Shown: in pieces, positions 52,535 to 64,000 of the stretch
How positions within the stretch are numbered: the first letter of the stretch is position 1
How the letters are laid out: every line of letters starts with the position of its first letter
Assembly: GCA_017409785.1 (NCBI GenBank)
Contig: JAFQSD010000004.1
Span: forward strand, 48,663-112,662
DNA: 64,000 nt
Reading direction: 5' to 3'
From: Bacilli bacterium
Lineage (GTDB): Bacteria; Bacillota_I; Bacilli_A; RF39; UBA660
The notes under the pieces: model-generated
Seen by the model: only the letters and a program-made list of their open reading frames with translations
Database searches by the model: none
What the model was told of the DNA's origin: nothing
Translations under genes and position numbers: made by a program

Positions 52535-54220
52535 ATGAAGTTATTTAAAGAAGTAATAAAAAACAATTTAAAATTAATGATAGTTTATTTTATACTTGGA
52601 ATAACATTTACATTCTTGGGGCTATATGCCACAAATTATTTTCAAGTAATAATTGACTCATTTGGAACAAATGAAATAACACTAGGAATGATAATATTTT
52701 ATGGAATAGTTTTATTAATAAATGCCATCATTGGATACATTGACAACTATCCAGACAGAGTTTTATTTAACAAACTTTATTTAGAATTCAAAAAGCAATC
52801 TATGAAAAAACTAAAGACAATAGATTATCAAGAATATCAAAAAATAGGAACAGGGAGATTATCACAACAAGTAGAAGAGGGTGCAACAGCAGCAAGAGAT
52901 GCAATCTATTTCTTCTGGTTAAAGTTACTAAGGGAACTTTTACCAGGGGCTATTATAAGTTTATTCTTCATAGGTAGAATTGAGTTCAAAGTGTTATTAA
53001 TAGTTTTAATTGGATACATATTTGTAATCATCCTAACAAACATTGTTCTAAAGGTTCTATACAATTTAAAAGAAAAAATAAACATCAATCAAGAGTTATT
53101 AAATAAACATTTAATTCGTGGTTTCATGGAATTAGTAGTTTTTAGAACTAACAAAAAGTATGATGTTGAATTAGAAAAAATAGATCTAGAAATAACTGAC
53201 ATTACTAAAGGAAAAACTAAAATAAAATTAGTTCATGAAATATTTTTCACAGCTTTTGAAATTCTAGTTACAATAATCAAAATAATAATGTTAGTATATG
53301 CAGTTATTTCAAAAAATCTGACAATAGGTGAAATAGTAGTTTTAATAACTCTATTAGGCAAAGCCTATGAACCAATTGCAATATTCAATGTTGAATACAT
53401 AGACTACAAATTAAACATAGTATCATTAAAACGCTATTTAGAATTCTTAGATTTACCAGATGTTTCAAATATGTATGAAGGAAAAACATTAAAAAATATT
53501 TCTGGTAATGTAGTCTTAAATGATGTAACATTTGCCTACAAAGAAAAACAAGTGCTAGAAAATATTAATCTTGAAATAAAAGAAAATTCAACTGTCGCAT
53601 TTGTTGGTGAAACAGGAAGTGGAAAGTCAACAATCATAAAATTAATTGCTGGACTAATAAAACCTCAATCAGGAAATGTATTAATAGATAATAAAGATCT
53701 AACTAAAATAAAATTAGATTCATACTATGATTACTTATCTTATTTATCACAAGATTCACCTATCTTTGACGGAACGCTAAAAGAAAACATTGTTTTTGAC
53801 AAAAATGTATCAGATGAGAAAATAATAGAAGTATTAAAACTTGTTGAATTAGAAAAGTTTTATTCAAAATTAAAAAATGGTTTAGAGACTGAACTAGGAG
53901 AAAAAGGAATCTTAATTTCTGGAGGAGAACGTCAAAGAATAGCTCTTGCGAGACTTTTCTTTGATGATTCAAAAATAATAATTTTAGATGAAGCAACATC
54001 AGCAATGGACAACATAACAGAAGAAAAAGTAATGAATTCAATCATGAAAAAACTAGAAAATAAAACTTTCATCATAATTGCTCATCGACTAAACACAATA
54101 AGGAATGTAGATAAAATCTTTGTTCTAAGAAATGGCTCAATAACTGACACAGGGACATACAAATCATTACAAAAAAATAGTGAATATTTCGAAGAACTAT
54201 CATTGAAAAAAGTAAACTAA
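52535..54220 (+). CDS. ABC exporter, fused permease-ATPase (type I exporter family)
   Basis: 6-TM N-domain, Walker A GETGSGKST, signature LSGGERQRIALAR, Walker B IIILDEATS; 561 aa. Confidence 0.85.
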   Translation: MKLFKEVIKNNLKLMIVYFILGITFTFLGLYATNYFQVIIDSFGTNEITLGMIIFYGIVLLINAIIGYIDNYPDRVLFNKLYLEFKKQSMKKLKTIDYQEYQKIGTGRLSQQVEEGATAARDAIYFFWLKLLRELLPGAIISLFFIGRIEFKVLLIVLIGYIFVIILTNIVLKVLYNLKEKININQELLNKHLIRGFMELVVFRTNKKYDVELEKIDLEITDITKGKTKIKLVHEIFFTAFEILVTIIKIIMLVYAVISKNLTIGEIVVLITLLGKAYEPIAIFNVEYIDYKLNIVSLKRYLEFLDLPDVSNMYEGKTLKNISGNVVLNDVTFAYKEKQVLENINLEIKENSTVAFVGETGSGKSTIIKLIAGLIKPQSGNVLIDNKDLTKIKLDSYYDYLSYLSQDSPIFDGTLKENIVFDKNVSDEKIIEVLKLVELEKFYSKLKNGLETELGEKGILISGGERQRIALARLFFDDSKIIILDEATSAMDNITEEKVMNSIMKKLENKTFIIIAHRLNTIRNVDKIFVLRNGSITDTGTYKSLQKNSEYFEELSLKKVN

Positions 54221-54309
54221 TATGTTACTATTAAATTGCAAGGAAACTTGTACAAAAAAAGGATACATTTGAGTGCCTCAAACGTATTCCTTTCTTGGAA
54301 CATAAGGAT

Positions 54310-54343
54310 GAGTCTAACTTATGTTAGACTCTGTTTTTATTTT
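54310..54343 (+). terminator. rho-independent terminator
   Basis: gagtctaac ttat gttagactc followed by tgtttttatttt. Confidence 0.7.
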
Positions 54344-54382
54344 AGAAGTAATAATATCACAACTAATAATAGAAGGAGTATT

Positions 54383-54463
54383 ATGGAGTATAAAGAACAT
54401 TCTCTTTTACTCATAATAATCACCTCCTTTCTTGAATTTCTCCAAGAAAGAAAACATTCCTAA
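54383..54463 (+). CDS. candidate 26-aa hydrophobic small protein MEYKEHSLLLIIITSFLEFLQERKHS
   Basis: RBS gaaggag 4-5 nt upstream; located after a terminator and before a weak hairpin plus T-run. Confidence 0.25.
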   Translation: MEYKEHSLLLIIITSFLEFLQERKHS

Positions 54464-54680
54464 ATGTATCCGAAAACGTATGTTATCAACCTCAAAATGA
54501 AATGACAAACTGCCAAATATTAAAATTAAGAGAATTATGAATATAGAAAAATCAGTCATATTAGGCTGATTTTTTCTTTCTATAAAAAAACTATCTTTAA
54601 ATAACTAAAATATTAATAAACTAATATTCTAAAATAAACAATTATGATATAATGTAGTCTACTAAGAAAGAGGTGTTCAT

Positions 54681-59280: not shown

Positions 59281-60075
59281 ATGAGCAAATTATATATTCA
59301 AAATTTAGCACCAATAATAACAGAGCGTTGCAATTTAAAATGTATGCATTGTATGCGTGGAACTGCAACATCAAAGGATATGAAAGATGAAGTTATAGAA
59401 CAACTAGGCCAAATAGATTCAATAGGAAATATAACTATCTGTGGAGGAGAACCTACTTTAGCTTTACCTACATTAGAAAAGTTACTAACATTTATTGTGG
59501 ACAATCATATTGGATTAGACACTCTAACAATGACAATAAATGGTACAAACTATAGTGAAGAATTATTAAGATTATTAGATTATATTGATGAATATATTCC
59601 TAAAAGAAAATATGATGTAAACGCTTTCTTTGGTATATCAAAAGATCCATTTCATGTAAGAGAATTAAAAGATAGAGGTCAAATTGATACATATGTAGAT
59701 AATGTAACTAAATATGTTGAAAGTCCACATTTTCTAGAATATCGTGAAATAGATAAAAAACTATTTAGAGAGGGTAGAGCAGAATCACTTGATCCAAGAA
59801 TTACTATACCTCTAAATCCATGGCCAATAATTTATACATATTTAAAAGAACATGATGTAACAGAAGTGGGACCATTAGTAGCAATTAACCCAGATGGAAT
59901 AGTTACTGAATGTGATGCTTCTTTAGAACATCAAAGAACATTATATAATTATGGAAATATTTTAGAAGAAGATTTAGAGTTAATTATAAAAAGAGTAGGA
60001 GAAGAAGTATCTCCAAGAACATGGTATAGAAAAACTGGAAAAATAATAAAAAAACAAATTAATTACAACAAGTAA
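59281..60075 (+). CDS. small radical SAM enzyme (PflA/NrdG-like minimal activase architecture)
   Basis: CNLKCMHC (CxxxCxxC) at residues 17-24 and a GGEP motif (ICGGEPTL); 264 aa. Confidence 0.6.
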   Translation: MSKLYIQNLAPIITERCNLKCMHCMRGTATSKDMKDEVIEQLGQIDSIGNITICGGEPTLALPTLEKLLTFIVDNHIGLDTLTMTINGTNYSEELLRLLDYIDEYIPKRKYDVNAFFGISKDPFHVRELKDRGQIDTYVDNVTKYVESPHFLEYREIDKKLFREGRAESLDPRITIPLNPWPIIYTYLKEHDVTEVGPLVAINPDGIVTECDASLEHQRTLYNYGNILEEDLELIIKRVGEEVSPRTWYRKTGKIIKKQINYNK

Positions 60076-60087
60076 AGATATCAAAAT

Positions 60088-60116
60088 TTGCAAAAACAAT
60101 AAACTTATGTTATAAT
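60088..60116 (+). promoter_or_regulatory. promoter TTGCAA-17-TGtTATAAT
   Basis: Seen directly. Confidence 0.5.
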
Positions 60117-60119
60117 TAA

Positions 60120-60340
60120 GCCAGTTAATTAAAAGACGACTCATTCAAAGTAATTATTTTATAATGTTTTATAGAGAGTTTGTGGTTATGTGGAAACAAA
60201 CAAAAATAAAATAATGAATTACAAGTGATGATTTTAATCGGAGAAGTCCGTTATCAAAATAAGGTAATAAACTATTATTACAAATAAAGGTGGTACCACG
60301 AGCATTTCGTCCTTTTGGATGAAGTGCTCTTTTTATTTTC
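60120..60340 (+). promoter_or_regulatory. T-box riboswitch leader (tyrosine specifier candidate UAC at 60220-60222)
   Basis: AGAGAG stem-I start, T-box core aaaGGTGGTACCacgag with a 7-nt UGGUACC bulge flanked by AAAGG/CCUUU and ACGA/UCGU helices, and an overlapping terminator gagcatttcgtcc/ggatgaagtgctc plus a T-run. It lies upstream of tyrS. Confidence 0.7.
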
Positions 60341-60356
60341 AAAGGAGGTGATTTGT

Positions 60357-60455
60357 ATGGATAGTGACTATTACTATTATTACTTTGATGATTGTAATTT
60401 AATTAACTATACAAATTATTTAGGAGGAAATAAAAATGAAAAAGAAATTATTTGA
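60357..60455 (+). CDS. candidate 32-codon Tyr-rich upstream ORF (MDSDYYYYYFDDCNLINYTNYLGGNKNEKEII)
   Basis: Strong RBS aaaggaggtg 7 nt upstream, directly after the T-box terminator; overlaps the tyrS RBS and start in another frame. Confidence 0.3.
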   Translation: MDSDYYYYYFDDCNLINYTNYLGGNKNEKEII

Positions 60456-61674
60456 TATTCTCAAAGAAAGAGGATACATAAAAGATTTAACACACGAACA
60501 AGAAATTATTGATTTATTGAATGGAGAACCATTTACATTTTACTTAGGAATTGATCCGACAGCAGATAGTCTACATATTGGTCATTTCTTTGCCTTAACA
60601 ATGTTTAGATGGTTACAAGATTTTGGACACAAAGGTATTGTCTTAGTTGGAGGAGCAACAGCCCTAATAGGAGATCCGACTGGAAAAAGTGATATGAGAA
60701 AAATGTTATCAAAAGAAGAAGTTGCTCACAACAAAGCTGAAGTAAAAGAATTAGTAAAACGTTTTGTAAAAACAGATGGAGATAATCCTGCAATTATTGT
60801 AGATAATGCAGATTGGATTTCTGATAAGAATTACATAGACTTTATGAGAGACATTGGAGTACACTTCAATGTCAACAATATGCTCCAAGCAGATTGTTAC
60901 AAAAAACGTCTAGAAAATGGTGGATTAACATTCCTAGAAATGGGCTACATGTTAATGCAAGCATTTGACTTTGTACATCTAAATAAAGAATTTGGTTGTA
61001 AACTACAAATAGGTGGTTCAGACCAATGGGGTAATATTATTGCTGGAGTAGACTTATCTAGAAAAATAGGATTTAGTGAAGGTAAAAAAATAGACCCATT
61101 ATTTGGTTTAGTATGTCCATTACTAATAAAAGCAGATGGAGAAAAAATGGGTAAAACAGCAACAGGTACACTATGGGTATCTAGAGATAAAACATCTACA
61201 TTTGAATTTTTCCAAGCATGGATGAATTCATTTGATGAAGATGTTGAAAGAAGTTTATCTTTCTTCACAAGAATGGAAATAGAAGATATAAAAGAACTTT
61301 GCAAAAAAGATATTAGAGAAGCAAAAAAACTTCTGGCTTTCGAAGTAACAAAATTAGTTCATGGTGAAGATGAAGCTATTAAAGCCAGAAAAACATCAGA
61401 AGAACTATTTAGTAATAAAGGTATTTCTGATAACATGCCAAGTATAACTTTATCTAAAGATAAATTAGATATTAATATAGTCGACTTATTAGTAGAAACA
61501 AATCTAGTAACATCTAAATCTGAAGCAAGAAGACTAATAGAACAAAATGGTATAAGTATAAATCAAATAAAAGTAAATAGTGTTAATGATTTAATAACAA
61601 AAGAAAGTTTAACTGAAAACTTTATAATTATTCAAAAAGGTAAAAAAGTATTTTTAAAAGTTATATTTGAATAA
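60436..61674 (+). CDS. tyrS: tyrosyl-tRNA synthetase
   Basis: HIGH (LHIGHF), KMSKS-like KMGKT, and an N-terminus collinear with TyrS. Confidence 0.9.
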   Translation: MKKKLFDILKERGYIKDLTHEQEIIDLLNGEPFTFYLGIDPTADSLHIGHFFALTMFRWLQDFGHKGIVLVGGATALIGDPTGKSDMRKMLSKEEVAHNKAEVKELVKRFVKTDGDNPAIIVDNADWISDKNYIDFMRDIGVHFNVNNMLQADCYKKRLENGGLTFLEMGYMLMQAFDFVHLNKEFGCKLQIGGSDQWGNIIAGVDLSRKIGFSEGKKIDPLFGLVCPLLIKADGEKMGKTATGTLWVSRDKTSTFEFFQAWMNSFDEDVERSLSFFTRMEIEDIKELCKKDIREAKKLLAFEVTKLVHGEDEAIKARKTSEELFSNKGISDNMPSITLSKDKLDINIVDLLVETNLVTSKSEARRLIEQNGISINQIKVNSVNDLITKESLTENFIIIQKGKKVFLKVIFE

Positions 61675-61716
61675 ATATAAATAATATTGTATGATTATAT
61701 ACAAGGAGGAGATAGT

Positions 61717-61764
61717 ATGAAGAAAACGAACATTTCAATTCAAACTATCTCTTTTATTTTCTAG
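61717..61764 (+). CDS. candidate 15-aa leader peptide MKKTNISIQTISFIF
   Basis: RBS aaggagga 6 nt upstream; the stop codon TAG abuts the 5' arm of the following terminator. Confidence 0.3.
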   Translation: MKKTNISIQTISFIF

Positions 61765-61799
61765 ACTTATTATTCCCTTAGGATAATAAGTCTTTTTTT
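61764..61799 (+). terminator. intrinsic terminator / attenuator upstream of pyrH
   Basis: gacttattat ...loop... ataataagtc followed by a T7 run. Confidence 0.6.
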
Positions 61800-61811
61800 A
61801 TAGGAGGATAT

Positions 61812-62516
61812 ATGAAATATAAAAGAATATTATTAAAATTAAGTGGAGAATCATTAGCTGGTTCTAAAGGAACAGGAATAGATTTTGATAAAGTATTAGA
61901 TGTTTGTAGAGAAATTACTGAAGTTGCTAAAAAAGGAGTAGAAGTAGCTATAGTGGTTGGTGGAGGAAACTTCTGGAGAGGAAGAAGTAATCAACAAATG
62001 GATAGATGTACATCTGACTATATTGGTATGCTAGGAACTACAATGAATGCACTGGCAATAGGAGATGCTTTTAAACAATTAAATCAACCTGTAAGAGTTC
62101 AAACAGGAGTAGAAATGCGACAAATAGCAGAATACTATATCAAAGATAGAGCAATCAAACATCTAACTAATAATAGAGTTGTAGTATTTGGTTGTGGAAC
62201 TGGTTCACCATTCTTTTCAACTGATACAGCAGCTGCCCTAAGAGCGGCAGAAATAAATGCAGATGCCCTTTTAAAAGCAACAAACGTAGATGGAATCTAT
62301 ACAAAAGATCCAAAGAAATATGAAGATGCTGAAAAGATAGATGAAATAACATATATGGAAGTATTAAATAAAAAACTAAATGTCATGGATACAACAGCAA
62401 CATCACTATGTATGGATAATAATATTCCAATCATAGTATTTGATATAAATACAAACGGTAATTTAAAAAAAGTAGTAGAAGGTAAAAAGATAGGAACTAT
62501 TGTAGAAAACAAATAA
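61812..62516 (+). CDS. pyrH: UMP kinase
   Basis: ILLKLSGESL, VVGGGN and the FGCGTGSPFFSTD motif; 234 aa. Confidence 0.9.
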   Translation: MKYKRILLKLSGESLAGSKGTGIDFDKVLDVCREITEVAKKGVEVAIVVGGGNFWRGRSNQQMDRCTSDYIGMLGTTMNALAIGDAFKQLNQPVRVQTGVEMRQIAEYYIKDRAIKHLTNNRVVVFGCGTGSPFFSTDTAAALRAAEINADALLKATNVDGIYTKDPKKYEDAEKIDEITYMEVLNKKLNVMDTTATSLCMDNNIPIIVFDINTNGNLKKVVEGKKIGTIVENK

Positions 62517-62549
62517 CTTTCATGATATATTAAAAACAGGAGTGATACT

Positions 62550-63176
62550 ATGGAAAATAAAAATATATCTGAAACAAAACAAAAAACAAAATTTAATCCA
62601 GGAAGTATCTTATTACTTATAGGATTATTATTAATAGCAGTAGGAGTAGCTTTAACAACCTTTGTACCACAAGAAGAACCAAATACTGAAACACCAAACC
62701 AACCTTCAGAAGAAACTCTTCCAGAAACAGAAACTGAAGTAGGGCAATTAATTGAACTTTCAAAAGAAACTGAAGAAATAACATATGATGAGAATCTACG
62801 TATTAAATTTATTGGAACAAAGAGTTCTGATATGGAAAATGCTTATAAATATAAAGCAGAGATTTATTTAAATGGAGAACTATTAAGTCATAATTTCTAC
62901 ACAGGACAAAATATTTATTCAAGTAATTATGGTGCGTATGTAAAAATTTATAAACTAGAGGGAACATATATTATAAGTTCATTTATTGCTAAACAATGTA
63001 ATGGAAATGATGTTTTAGTATTTACTTCTGATAAAACAGAGATGACTCCATACTTAGATGTGACTTTAGGTGTTGACCAAGAAAATAGTAAATACACTAT
63101 TTCTAAATGTGGTGATTGCATGGATGTAACAACATGCCAAGAAAAGACACTAGAAGTACCAAAATTGACAAAATAA
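62550..63176 (+). CDS. membrane-anchored/secreted hypothetical protein
   Basis: N-terminal TM helix (ILLLIGLLLIAVGVAL), then a Pro/Glu/Thr-rich linker and a Cys-containing domain. Confidence 0.4.
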   Translation: MENKNISETKQKTKFNPGSILLLIGLLLIAVGVALTTFVPQEEPNTETPNQPSEETLPETETEVGQLIELSKETEEITYDENLRIKFIGTKSSDMENAYKYKAEIYLNGELLSHNFYTGQNIYSSNYGAYVKIYKLEGTYIISSFIAKQCNGNDVLVFTSDKTEMTPYLDVTLGVDQENSKYTISKCGDCMDVTTCQEKTLEVPKLTK

Positions 63177-63193
63177 ACAAACTATTATATAAT
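63165..63193 (+). promoter_or_regulatory. consensus promoter TTGACA-17-TATAAT
   Basis: Seen directly; it overlaps the upstream stop codon. Confidence 0.5.
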
Positions 63194-63239
63194 TAGAACC
63201 ATCACAAAACCAGTGCGAGGAAGAAGTAGAAAAGTAAAA

Positions 63240-63484
63240 GCATTTTAGAGAACTCTGTTAGGTGAAAAAGAGGATGTAATGACTTTTTGAACATGGCCCT
63301 CAAGGGTGAATGGCTGAAACTTTAGTAAGTCATTACAGGTGTGCCTGTTACAGCACAAGCCTATAACTATGCAAAAGACATAAGTAGGTTAGCGAGTTTA
63401 GTACAGTAATGCACTATTAAATAAGAGTGGTAGCGTGATATATATTCACCTCTTAGGATTTTTTCCTAAGAGGTTTTTTGTTTA
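63240..63484 (+). promoter_or_regulatory. T-box riboswitch leader (methionine; AUG specifier candidates at 63274-63276 or 63279-63281)
   Basis: AGAGA stem-I start; antiterminator AAGAG-UGGUAGC-GUGA..UCAC-CUCUU with the 7-nt bulge; terminator cctcttagg/cctaagagg plus a T-run; lies upstream of metG. Confidence 0.6.
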
Positions 63485-63503
63485 TAAGAAAGGAAGGGAT
63501 ACA

Positions 63504-64000
63504 ATGAAGAATATATTAATAGGAATATCTTGGCCATTTGCAAACGGAGATTTGCATATAGGCCATGCAGCAAGTAGTTTGCCAGGAGATGTTATCGCAA
63601 GATATCATCGATTAAAAGGAAATAATGTAATATTAGTATCAGGGAGTGATTGCCATGGCACTCCAATTGATGTTAAAGCATTACAAGAAAACAAAAGTGC
63701 CAAAGAAATAGTCGATCTTTGTCATGAAAATTTTACAAGAGACTGGAAAAATCTAGGAGTAAGTTTTGATCTCTATAACAGAACAGATGATGAATACCAT
63801 AAAAACTTTGTAAAAAAACAATTTAAAAAATATTATGAATATGGTTATCTTTATGAACAACAAGAAGAACAACTATTCTGTAGTCATTGTAATTTATTTT
63901 TAGCTGATCGTTACATAGTAGGAGTATGTCCGAAATGTGGTTCTAATATTAAAGGAGATGAATGTGAGAAATGTGGAAGTCTTTTAGAAATAAAAGATGT
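63504..64000 (+). CDS. metG: methionyl-tRNA synthetase (3'-truncated by the window end)
   Basis: HIGH motif (DLHIGHA) and zinc knuckle CPKCGS...CEKCGS; the ORF runs off the window. Confidence 0.8.
   Translation, partial: MKNILIGISWPFANGDLHIGHAASSLPGDVIARYHRLKGNNVILVSGSDCHGTPIDVKALQENKSAKEIVDLCHENFTRDWKNLGVSFDLYNRTDDEYHKNFVKKQFKKYYEYGYLYEQQEEQLFCSHCNLFLADRYIVGVCPKCGSNIKGDECEKCGSLLEIKD

What the first reader, a model, noticed from the sequence alone, without database searches (positions are those of the whole stretch)
61717..61799. pyrBI-style leader-peptide attenuator in front of pyrH
Seen: RBS aaggagga, ATG 61717, a 15-aa ORF MKKTNISIQTISFIF whose 3' half is U-rich (ctatctcttttattttc). Its TAG stop (61762-61764) overlaps the first base of a perfect 10-bp terminator stem (gacttattat/ataataagtc) followed by a T7 run. 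The pyrH ATG follows 12 nt later. Established: E. coli pyrBI and pyrE are controlled by UTP-sensitive attenuation. RNAP pauses in a U-rich leader when UTP is low, the coupled ribosome reaches the terminator's 5' arm and prevents hairpin formation. Inference: the same logic here would make UMP kinase expression respond to UTP. This differs from the PyrR-protein mechanism typical of low-GC Gram-positives, and pyrH is not in its usual tsf-pyrH-frr context.
Basis: partly seen in the sequence, partly recalled or inferred. Interest (0 to 1): 0.6.

Follow-up and report, generated by a model that had tools for sequence, protein, structure and literature searches.

The report
Translated leader attenuator controlling pyrH
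A short, conserved control region in front of the UMP kinase gene of uncultured gut Bacilli combines its own promoter, a tiny translated reading frame and a transcription stop signal, so the gene is probably switched on only when a ribosome follows the polymerase closely; the signal it senses (possibly UTP) is still unproven.

Summary
The SD, the 15-codon ORF (61717-61764), the TAG overlapping a 13-bp terminator hairpin (61763-61793), the U7 run and the pyrH ATG 12 nt later are all present.

It is not the tyrS terminator. The same unit lies directly upstream of pyrH in 26 distinct loci of RF39-like Bacilli. The upstream genes differ, and four are divergent.

The unit consists of:
- a promoter, TTGnnn-17-TAnnAT;
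- SD1 and AUG at the extreme 5' end;
- an open mini-ORF;
- a terminator;
- SD2 and pyrH.

The mini-ORF stays open: 0 in-frame versus 28 off-frame stops in 20 non-redundant leaders (P~3e-7). Its peptide is not conserved. It always ends 1-4 nt before the hairpin or inside it.

Best reading: a ribosome-dependent transcription attenuator gated by a kinetic race between ribosome loading and P1 folding. UTP-dependent pausing fits most leaders (a U-run in 19 of 26) but is not universal and remains untested.

No Rfam family matches, and I found no paper describing it. I rate it a new variant of a known kind, of moderate interest.

The parts
61667..61672 (+). -35 hexamer TTGAAT of the pyrH leader promoter. 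It overlaps the last tyrS codon and the first base of its stop.
   Evidence: Promoter scan, TTGAAT-17-TATGAT. TTGnnn with a 17-nt spacer in 25 of 26 related leaders, whatever gene lies upstream.
61690..61695 (+). -10 hexamer TATGAT. The predicted transcription start is about 61701-61703.
   Evidence: The -10 ends 6-10 nt before SD1 in all 26 leaders, so SD1 sits at the extreme 5' end of the transcript (inference; no 5' end was mapped).
61705..61716 (+). 5' strand of hairpin P1, GGAGGAGAUAGU. It contains the mini-ORF Shine-Dalgarno, SD1 GGAGG 61705-61709.
   Evidence: Folds and covariation counts: 16 pairs, 90% of cells paired, 6 pairs with double changes.
61717..61764 (+). Leader mini-ORF, 15 codons plus TAG (MKKTNISIQTISFIF).
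   Evidence: ATG invariant in 26 of 26. 0 internal in-frame stops against 28 off-frame in 20 non-redundant leaders, P~3e-7. The peptide and its frame over the conserved nucleotides are not conserved.
61744..61755 (+). 3' strand of P1, ACUAUCUCUUUU. This pyrimidine-rich anti-SD strand lies inside the mini-ORF.
   Evidence: Compensatory variants include GUGAUG/CAUCAC (L007, L203), GAUGAAU/AUUCAUC (L130, L159) and AUAAAUAU/AUAUUUGU (L210).
61756..61762 (+). U-rich linker AUUUUCU between P1 and the terminator. Candidate pause site; in the window it can also pair with SD2.
   Evidence: Composition: 52-54% U here against 31% T in the window overall. U-run of at least 4 in 19 of 26 leaders; TTNTTT in 13 of 26 against about 8% expected. 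SD2 pairing in the MFE fold.
61763..61793 (+). Intrinsic terminator hairpin: 13 bp, 5-nt loop, about -13 kcal/mol, only 3 G-C pairs.
   Evidence: 98% of cells paired across 26 leaders, with 5 pairs showing double changes.
61793..61799 (+). U7 tract of the terminator.
   Evidence: Conserved in all aligned leaders.
61803..61807 (+). pyrH Shine-Dalgarno (SD2, GGAGG).
   Evidence: Mean pairing probability 0.35 when P1 is formed and 0.87 when the P1 5' strand is blocked.
61812..62516 (+). pyrH (UMP kinase, 234 aa).
   Evidence: TIGR02075 pyrH_bact, 308.5 bits against a cutoff of 243.9. PF00696 in homologues.

Best explanation
This is a pyrH-specific, ribosome-dependent transcription attenuator.

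Sequence of events proposed:
1. Transcription starts at a dedicated promoter (61667-61695), about 2-4 nt before a strong SD.
2. The first ~100 nt encode a 12-23 codon mini-ORF, followed by a weak, A/U-rich intrinsic terminator 18 nt before the pyrH start.
3. If no ribosome is on the leader when the polymerase reaches the U-tract, the terminator forms and a ~100-nt RNA is released (OFF).
4. If a ribosome has loaded and follows the polymerase, it ends at a stop codon 1-4 nt before the hairpin or inside it. It therefore covers or melts the 5' arm, and the polymerase reads into pyrH (ON).

Loading is gated. As soon as the pyrimidine-rich 3' part of the mini-ORF leaves the polymerase, it pairs with SD1 and the AUG (hairpin P1) and closes the leader RBS. 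The outcome is therefore a race between 30S binding and transcription of the next ~40 nt.

Anything that slows the polymerase in the U-rich P1 3' strand and linker lengthens the loading window. Low UTP is the most likely such condition, and it gives the correct feedback sign for UMP kinase.

After read-through, re-formed P1 keeps the anti-SD strand occupied, which leaves the pyrH SD free.

Shown: conservation, covariation, ORF openness and stop placement. Inferred: the start site, coupling, pausing and the identity of the signal.
For: - The unit is found at pyrH only, in 26 loci. The covariance model scores 60-106 bits there, and the next best hit in the window scores 28 bits.
- Upstream genes differ in nearly every relative, and four are divergent (L203, L206, L210, L212). 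The terminator therefore lies inside the pyrH transcription unit.
- The promoter is conserved at a fixed distance.
- The mini-ORF has 0 in-frame stops against 28 off-frame stops in 20 leaders under 70% identical, P~3e-7. The peptide is not conserved, and all three frames relative to the hairpin are used.
- Among the 23 leaders examined, the stop lies at -4 to -1 of the hairpin in 12 and at +15 to +23 inside it in 11. The three added later (L130, L159, L183) were not tabulated; L130 and L159 end in TAG at the hairpin base.
- In E. coli a terminator within a few nt of a translated stop codon is almost fully repressed, and termination becomes maximal beyond about 27-30 nt (PMC4824070).
- P1 has 90% of cells paired against 44-61% for slid controls. 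Six pairs show double changes, and the AUG is paired in most leaders.
- The region from P1's 3' strand to the terminator's 5' arm is 52-54% U, against 31% T in the window. The P1 loop is 56% A.
- There is a precedent in Bacilli. In the B. subtilis tlrB leader a hairpin that would block leader-peptide translation is outrun thanks to an RNAP pause, and the ribosome near the stop codon interferes with the terminator (PMC6851288).
Against: - There are no expression data. The start site, the terminated RNA and translation of the ORF are all inferred.
- P1 (-8 to -19 kcal/mol) buries SD1 and the AUG, so the loading window is very short unless a pause exists. No pause has been shown.
- Four to seven leaders lack a U-run. 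The U-richness is partly explained by G-U and A-U pairing with SD1.
- Low UTP on its own is expected to increase, not decrease, intrinsic termination.
- In B. subtilis transcription and translation are reported to be largely uncoupled (my own knowledge: Johnson et al. 2020, not readable here). That would disfavour this mechanism if it also holds in RF39.
- Two relatives (L006, L053) keep only the hairpin.
Confidence: 0.55

Rival explanations
1. The hardware is the same, but the input is translational capacity or growth rate rather than UTP. The chance that a 30S subunit captures SD1 before P1 closes scales with the concentration of free initiation-competent ribosomes. pyrH would then be expressed in step with the translation apparatus. 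This resembles the E. coli ampC attenuator (my own knowledge: Jaurin et al. 1981). It would replace the co-regulation lost when pyrH left the rpsB-tsf-pyrH-frr operon.
For: pyrH lies outside tsf/frr in this whole clade, while Clostridia and lactobacilli in the same scan keep tsf upstream. The race between P1 folding and ribosome binding is intrinsic to the structure. Leaders without a U-run keep P1, the ORF and the terminator.
Against: Most leaders keep a U-run or T-rich tract longer than P1 pairing needs, and this model does not require one. There is no direct evidence either way.
Confidence: 0.2
2. Mainly a translational switch. The pyrimidine strand is an anti-SD that can pair with either SD1 (P1) or the pyrH SD2. 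P1 acts as an anti-anti-SD that keeps pyrH translatable, and the terminator is only a constitutive leaky stop.
For: With P1 formed, SD2 is paired with mean probability 0.35. With the P1 5' strand blocked, this rises to 0.87, and it exceeds 0.65 in 23 of 26 leaders.
Against: Any CU-rich strand pairs with any SD, so this complementarity is nearly automatic. No covariation beyond the SD core could be shown for the SD2 pairing. The model does not explain why the mini-ORF must stay open up to the hairpin.
Confidence: 0.1
3. An RNA-only element. P1 is a 5'-terminal stabilising hairpin and the terminator is a fixed partial terminator or insulator. The SD, ATG and ORF are by-products and are not translated.
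For: P1 starts within a few nt of the predicted 5' end and occludes SD1 and the AUG. The peptide sequence is not conserved.
Against: ORF openness: 0 in-frame stops against 14.5 expected. TATG is invariant, with optimal SD spacing. The stop always falls at or inside the hairpin.
Confidence: 0.1
4. A plain intrinsic terminator of tyrS, with pyrH expressed by leakage.
For: The hairpin lies 89 nt after the tyrS stop. Two relatives have the hairpin right after an upstream gene and no mini-ORF (L006, L053).
Against: tyrS is upstream only in the window. The unit follows pyrH behind unrelated genes and behind divergently transcribed genes. A conserved promoter lies between the upstream gene and the hairpin.
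Confidence: 0.03

Closest known systems
E. coli pyrBI leader (UTP-sensitive, leader-peptide-dependent attenuation)
   Same: Own promoter, a translated leader ORF reaching the terminator, a terminator just before the structural gene, a T-rich tract ahead of it, and a pyrimidine-pathway target. A ribosome close behind the polymerase blocks the hairpin.
   Different: There is no sequence relationship. The ORF has 12-23 codons rather than 44. The leader RBS is buried by a covarying hairpin made with the ORF's own 3' part. The U-run is not universal. The organism belongs to the Bacilli, not the enterobacteria. The target is pyrH, which I have not seen reported as attenuated.
E. coli rph-pyrE attenuator
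   Same: [quoted passage not shown] The L006 and L053 variants, where a full-length upstream gene ends 11-13 nt before the same hairpin, look like this arrangement.
   Different: In the window and 25 relatives the upstream frame is a dedicated mini-ORF with its own promoter, not a real gene.
B. subtilis tlrB (yxjB) and bmrCD leader-peptide attenuators (PMC6851288, PMC4191407)
   Same: Bacilli lineage, a leader peptide plus an intrinsic terminator, a hairpin that would shut leader translation, and a need for the ribosome to load during a time window. The ribosome near the stop codon interferes with the terminator.
   Different: Those sense antibiotics through peptide-specific ribosome arrest (for example the RYR motif). 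Here the peptide is not conserved, there is no antiterminator alternative, and the target is a housekeeping nucleotide kinase.
E. coli ampC attenuator (own knowledge)
   Same: Ribosome binding in the leader prevents termination, and the output follows ribosome availability.
   Different: ampC has only a minimal start-stop ORF and no RBS-sequestering hairpin. It was not tested here.
PyrR-dependent pyr attenuators of Bacillota (Rfam RF00515)
   Same: A terminator-based leader in front of a pyrimidine gene in a low-GC Gram-positive lineage.
   Different: No match to RF00515 even at E<=10. There is no antiterminator/anti-antiterminator pair, and a translated ORF is present.

Membership tests
pyrBI-type UTP-sensitive leader-peptide attenuator | Intrinsic terminator between a dedicated promoter and the structural gene | tested here: met
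   Terminator 61763-61799. Promoter conserved in 25 of 26 leaders with a 17-nt spacer. Divergent upstream genes in four loci.
pyrBI-type UTP-sensitive leader-peptide attenuator | Translated leader ORF whose ribosome can reach the terminator's 5' arm | tested here: met
   By comparative inference only. 0 in-frame stops against 28 off-frame, P~3e-7. In the 23 leaders tabulated, the stop lies at -4 to -1 or +15 to +23 of the hairpin start.
pyrBI-type UTP-sensitive leader-peptide attenuator | U-rich pause region just upstream of the terminator | tested here: inconclusive
   U-run of at least 4 in 19 of 26 leaders, and 52-54% U against 31% background. L102, L201, L206 and L212 lack it. The U's also serve P1 pairing.
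pyrBI-type UTP-sensitive leader-peptide attenuator | Read-through rises when UTP falls | not testable with these tools
   Needs in vitro transcription-translation or expression data.
pyrBI-type UTP-sensitive leader-peptide attenuator | Sequence or structure homology to the enterobacterial leader | tested here: not met
   No Rfam family matches 61675-61811 at E<=10. The leader is confined to a clade with PyrH at least ~81% identical.
PyrR binding site (RF00515) | Match to the PyrR-binding anti-antiterminator model | tested here: not met
   cmscan of 59900-64000 at E<=10 and of the whole window at gathering score: no hit.
pyrG-type reiterative-transcription attenuator | Homopolymeric start region whose extension pairs with the terminator's 5' arm | tested here: not met
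   The predicted start region is (A)CAAGGAGG, with no conserved run across leaders. With the 5' strand blocked, the terminator stays intact in all 26 folds.
Antibiotic-sensing leader-peptide attenuators (tlrB, bmrCD, erm-type) | Conserved arrest motif in the leader peptide | tested here: not met
   Peptides share no motif. The frame over the conserved nucleotides differs, for example in L007 and L008.
Antibiotic-sensing leader-peptide attenuators (tlrB, bmrCD, erm-type) | Alternative antiterminator or SD-release structure exposed by a stalled ribosome | tested here: not met
   No competing structure for the terminator in constrained folds.
T-box leader (RF00230) | Match to the T-box model | tested here: not met
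   T-boxes are found only at 60127-60317 (tyrS) and 63204-63456 (metS), not at the pyrH leader.

The most novel reading that the evidence does not exclude
The leader is a nucleotide-sensing, ribosome-coupled attenuator in a Bacilli lineage. One U-rich segment serves two roles. It is the anti-SD that closes the leader RBS, and it is the UTP-dependent pause site that keeps that RBS open. Low UTP would therefore license exactly one pioneering ribosome to carry the polymerase through the terminator. This would imply functional transcription-translation coupling in RF39-type reduced-genome Bacilli. It would also be the first attenuation control reported for pyrH.
Probability: 0.3. Interest if true: 0.7.

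Novelty: new variant of a known kind. Interest (0 to 1): 0.55.

Why it matters
- UMP kinase is essential, and it is usually thought to be controlled allosterically and by co-transcription with translation-factor genes. Here it has a private promoter and attenuator that travel with it through genome rearrangements.
- Ribosome-dependent attenuation of a housekeeping metabolic gene is unusual in Bacillota, where protein-, tRNA- and metabolite-binding leaders dominate and coupling is thought to be weak. A conserved case in abundant, uncultured gut Bacilli would therefore bear on how widespread transcription-translation coupling is in that phylum.
- The self-closing leader RBS is a compact, testable design for a single-ribosome kinetic gate.
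- The 26-sequence alignment and covariance model make it straightforward to annotate.

Tried and rejected
- **Rfam.** Scans at E<=10 around the site and at gathering score over the whole window find nothing at the leader.
- **Metagenome scan.** Most hits were unrelated AT-rich terminators, and only six distinct pyrH leaders came out of it: L089 (also recovered as L122 and L125), L102, L130, L159, L183 and L189.
- **Other copies.** The covariance model found no second copy before any other gene in the window or in 212 loci. The best non-pyrH hits score 25-30 bits and are other terminator-plus-SD sites such as the metS T-box terminator. No regulon could be shown. Whole genomes of relatives could not be fetched.
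- **Antiterminator.** I looked for a structure competing with the terminator (SD1 region against the 5' arm, pyrimidine strand against the 3' arm). None exists; the terminator persists in all constrained folds.
- **Functional small protein.** Rejected, because the peptide is not conserved and the frame shifts.
- **Reiterative transcription.** Rejected for lack of a homopolymer at the predicted start.
- **NusG-type TTNTTT pause motif.** Enriched, 13 of 26 against about 8% expected, but not universal, so not decisive.
- **Literature.** Full-text searches for pyrH attenuation or leaders found nothing relevant. Johnson et al. 2020 could not be read. No open-access paper on the ampC attenuator was found.
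- **Weak model hits at 54217-54595.** These are unrelated hairpins in a long intergenic region.

Full report
**1. The observation**

- AAGGAGGA lies at 61703-61710 and the ATG at 61717.
- The 15-codon ORF is MKKTNISIQTISFIF, ending in TAG at 61762-61764.
- There is an inverted repeat followed by seven T's (61793-61799).
- The pyrH ATG at 61812 is 12 nt further on.

The terminator scan extends the stem to 13 pairs (61763-61793, 5-nt loop), so two bases of the stop codon are inside it. The intergenic RNA folds far better than shuffles (z = -4.5). The downstream gene is a bona fide UMP kinase and the upstream one is tyrS. tyrS has its own T-box. No Rfam family matches the pyrH leader, even at E<=10.

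**2. Whose terminator is it?**

A scan of one genome per species with the PyrH protein places the window in an uncultured Bacilli clade, annotated variously as Bacilli bacterium, Ca. Coprovivens or 'Mycoplasma sp.'. GC content is 27%.

Seven genome relatives with PyrH 84-90% identical to the window's carry the same ~145-nt block directly upstream of pyrH, although the upstream gene differs in each. Twelve more PyrH cluster representatives (88-93% identity) were fetched one by one, and all twelve carry it. In L203, L206, L210 and L212 the upstream gene is on the opposite strand. The hairpin there cannot terminate an upstream gene, and pyrH must be transcribed from within the intergenic region.

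A covariance model built from 23 leaders finds the element once in the window, at 106 bits with the next hit at 28 bits. In total it finds 26 distinct loci, always in front of pyrH.

More distant relatives (PyrH 79% identical or less: L009-L015, L019) have no such leader. Clostridia and lactobacilli in the same scan keep tsf upstream of pyrH, whereas this clade does not. The window's neighbours are unrelated genes.

**3. Promoter**

In 25 of 26 loci a TTGnnn hexamer lies 17 nt upstream of a TAnnAT hexamer. In the window these are TTGAAT at 61667-61672, overlapping the tyrS stop, and TATGAT at 61690-61695. The TAnnAT hexamer ends 6-10 nt before the first G of the leader SD.

The conserved block begins exactly at the -35, and this is where synteny with the upstream gene breaks. 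I infer a start near 61701-61703, which puts the leader SD at the very 5' end of the RNA. No 5' end has been mapped.

**4. The mini-ORF is kept open, but not its peptide**

The TATG is invariant, and SD1 lies 7-8 nt upstream of it.

In the first 23 leaders, the ATG frame has no internal stop between the ATG and the hairpin in 334 codons. The other two frames have 38 and 17. After collapsing the 26 aligned leaders to 20 that are under 70% identical in this region (mean pairwise identity 49%), and after discarding the ATGA overlap, the counts are 0 in frame against 28 off frame. With 14.5 expected, P~3e-7.

The peptides share no motif. The reading frame across the conserved nucleotides CTATCTCTTTT differs in L007 and L008. 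What is selected is therefore translation, not a product.

Among those 23, the stop codon is at -4 to -1 of the first stem base in 12 and at +15 to +23, in the loop or 3' arm, in 11. It is never further upstream and never beyond the hairpin. In E. coli, a terminator within a few nt of a translated stop codon is almost completely repressed, and full termination needs about 27-30 nt (PMC4824070). The geometry here is therefore the one in which a ribosome gives maximal anti-termination.

**5.

SD1, the spacer and usually the AUG itself pair with the pyrimidine-rich 3' part of the mini-ORF. In the window this is 61705-61716 with 61744-61755. Together they form a 5'-terminal hairpin, P1, of -8 to -19 kcal/mol.

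On the model-based alignment of 26 leaders, 90% of P1 cells are standard pairs, against 44-61% when the partner is slid by 1-3 columns. Six of its 16 pairs show changes on both sides, and all five whole-structure measures exceed all 500 shuffles. Because the alignment was fitted to the model, these counts lean towards the structure. The compensatory variants are nonetheless plain in the raw sequences:
- GAUAG/CUAUC
- GUGAUG/CAUCAC (L007, L203)
- GAUGAAU/AUUCAUC (L130, L159)
- AUAAAUAU/AUAUUUGU (L210)
- AGGAGGAAUAGUU/AAUUAUUUUUCCU (L089)

The terminator is 98% paired, with five pairs changed on both sides.

**6. How it most likely works**

No structure competes with the terminator. When the P1 5' strand is blocked in silico, the terminator persists in all 26 leaders. 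The only plausible anti-terminator is the ribosome itself.

P1 closes the leader RBS as soon as its 3' strand leaves the polymerase. This happens when the polymerase is already entering the terminator. A ribosome must therefore load within the time needed to transcribe about 40 nt. If it does, it follows the polymerase, prevents both P1 and the terminator from forming, and pyrH is transcribed. If it does not, P1 and the terminator fold and a ~100-nt RNA is released.

This is the logic demonstrated for the B. subtilis tlrB leader. There, an RNAP pause gives time for leader translation before a hairpin shuts it, and the ribosome near the stop codon interferes with the terminator (PMC6851288).

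After read-through, re-formed P1 keeps the anti-SD strand occupied. The pyrH SD is paired with mean probability 0.35 with P1 formed, but 0.87 when the P1 5' strand is unavailable.

**7. What is sensed?**

The P1 3' strand and linker are 52-54% U, against 31% T in the window overall, and follow a 56%-A loop. A U-run of at least 4 occurs in 19 of 26 leaders, and a TTNTTT motif in 13 of 26 against about 8% expected.

Slow transcription of this tract at low UTP would keep the anti-SD inside the polymerase and so prolong the loading window. That gives more UMP kinase when UTP is scarce.

The support is only partial.
- L102, L201, L206 and L212 have A-rich linkers.
- Part of the U-richness is explained by G-U and A-U pairing with AAGGAGG.
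- Nothing measures UTP dependence.

An equally workable input is the concentration of free ribosomes, giving growth-rate control as proposed for ampC (my own knowledge). That would suit a gene that normally sits in the rpsB-tsf-pyrH-frr operon.

I therefore put about 0.55 on the ribosome-gated attenuator. Within that, roughly 0.3-0.35 overall goes to UTP as the signal and 0.2 to ribosome availability.

**8. Variants**

L006 and L053 keep a clearly homologous hairpin, U-tract and SD2. They lack the promoter, P1 and the mini-ORF. Instead, a full-length upstream gene ends 11-13 nt before the hairpin.

Their PyrH proteins are as close to leader-bearing ones (86-88%) as the leader-bearing ones are to each other (mean 86%, minimum 81%). 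These look like secondary replacements of the 5' half and resemble the rph-pyrE arrangement. With only two cases this is an anecdote.

**9. Specificity control**

A generic scanner looked for an SD'd ATG, 8-35 codons, a stop within -8 nt of or inside a terminator hairpin, and a gene with an SD within 60 nt downstream. It finds only the pyrH leader in the window. In about 225 kb of relatives it finds only pyrH leaders.

**10. Comparison with known systems and novelty**

The element works like the pyrBI and pyrE attenuators and like the tlrB and bmrCD leaders, but it belongs to none of them.
- It has no homology to them and no Rfam match.
- It has no PyrR site.
- It has no arrest peptide.
- It has no antiterminator.
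- It has no reiterative-transcription signature.

Full-text searches found no report of attenuation control of pyrH. In E. coli, PyrH appears in the literature as a regulator of carAB rather than as a regulated gene.

I rate it a new variant of a known kind. It is a ribosome-dependent attenuator with a self-closing leader RBS, on a new target gene, in an uncultured Bacilli clade. Interest is 0.55. The comparative evidence is solid and the element is relevant to the question of coupling in Bacillota. The mechanism class is familiar, however, and the signal is unproven.

Noticed in passing
window 60342-60455: A strongly SD'd 32-codon uORF lies between the tyrS T-box terminator (60300-60329) and the tyrS start (60436). 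Its product is MDSDYYYYYFDDCNLINYTNYLGGNKNEKEII, with five consecutive Tyr codons and eight in all. It runs across the tyrS SD and start in another frame. The region 60330-60470 folds at -31.3 kcal/mol (z = -4.5). The uORF's SD and AUG are paired, and the T-box U-tail pairs with the tyrS SD. It looks like a Tyr-codon leader peptide in tandem with a Tyr T-box, built in the same style as the pyrH leader.
   Followed up: partly
window 63204-63456: A second T-box precedes the metS-like gene (start about 63505). It scores 92.3 bits, just under Rfam's gathering score of 93, so it is missed at the default threshold.
   Followed up: no
L006 3939-4000; L053 3943-4003: Two relatives keep the homologous terminator hairpin, U-tract and pyrH SD. 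They have lost the promoter, P1 and the mini-ORF. A full-length upstream gene ends 11-13 nt before the hairpin, an rph-pyrE-like layout.
   Followed up: partly
window 61660-61680 and the same position in L001-L008, L201-L212: pyrH with its leader has a different upstream neighbour in almost every relative. Synteny breaks right at the -35 hexamer, and the motif TTGAATAA often supplies the stop codon of whatever gene lies upstream. pyrH and its leader seem to move as a cassette.
   Followed up: partly
window 62550-63176: The gene after pyrH encodes a 208-aa protein with an N-terminal hydrophobic segment and no Pfam or NCBIfam match. Downstream neighbours of pyrH also vary among relatives.
   Followed up: no
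window 54221-54680: An unusually long (460-nt) intergenic region with several hairpins gave weak covariance-model hits on both strands (17-21 bits). By eye it is unrelated to the pyrH leader.
   Followed up: partly
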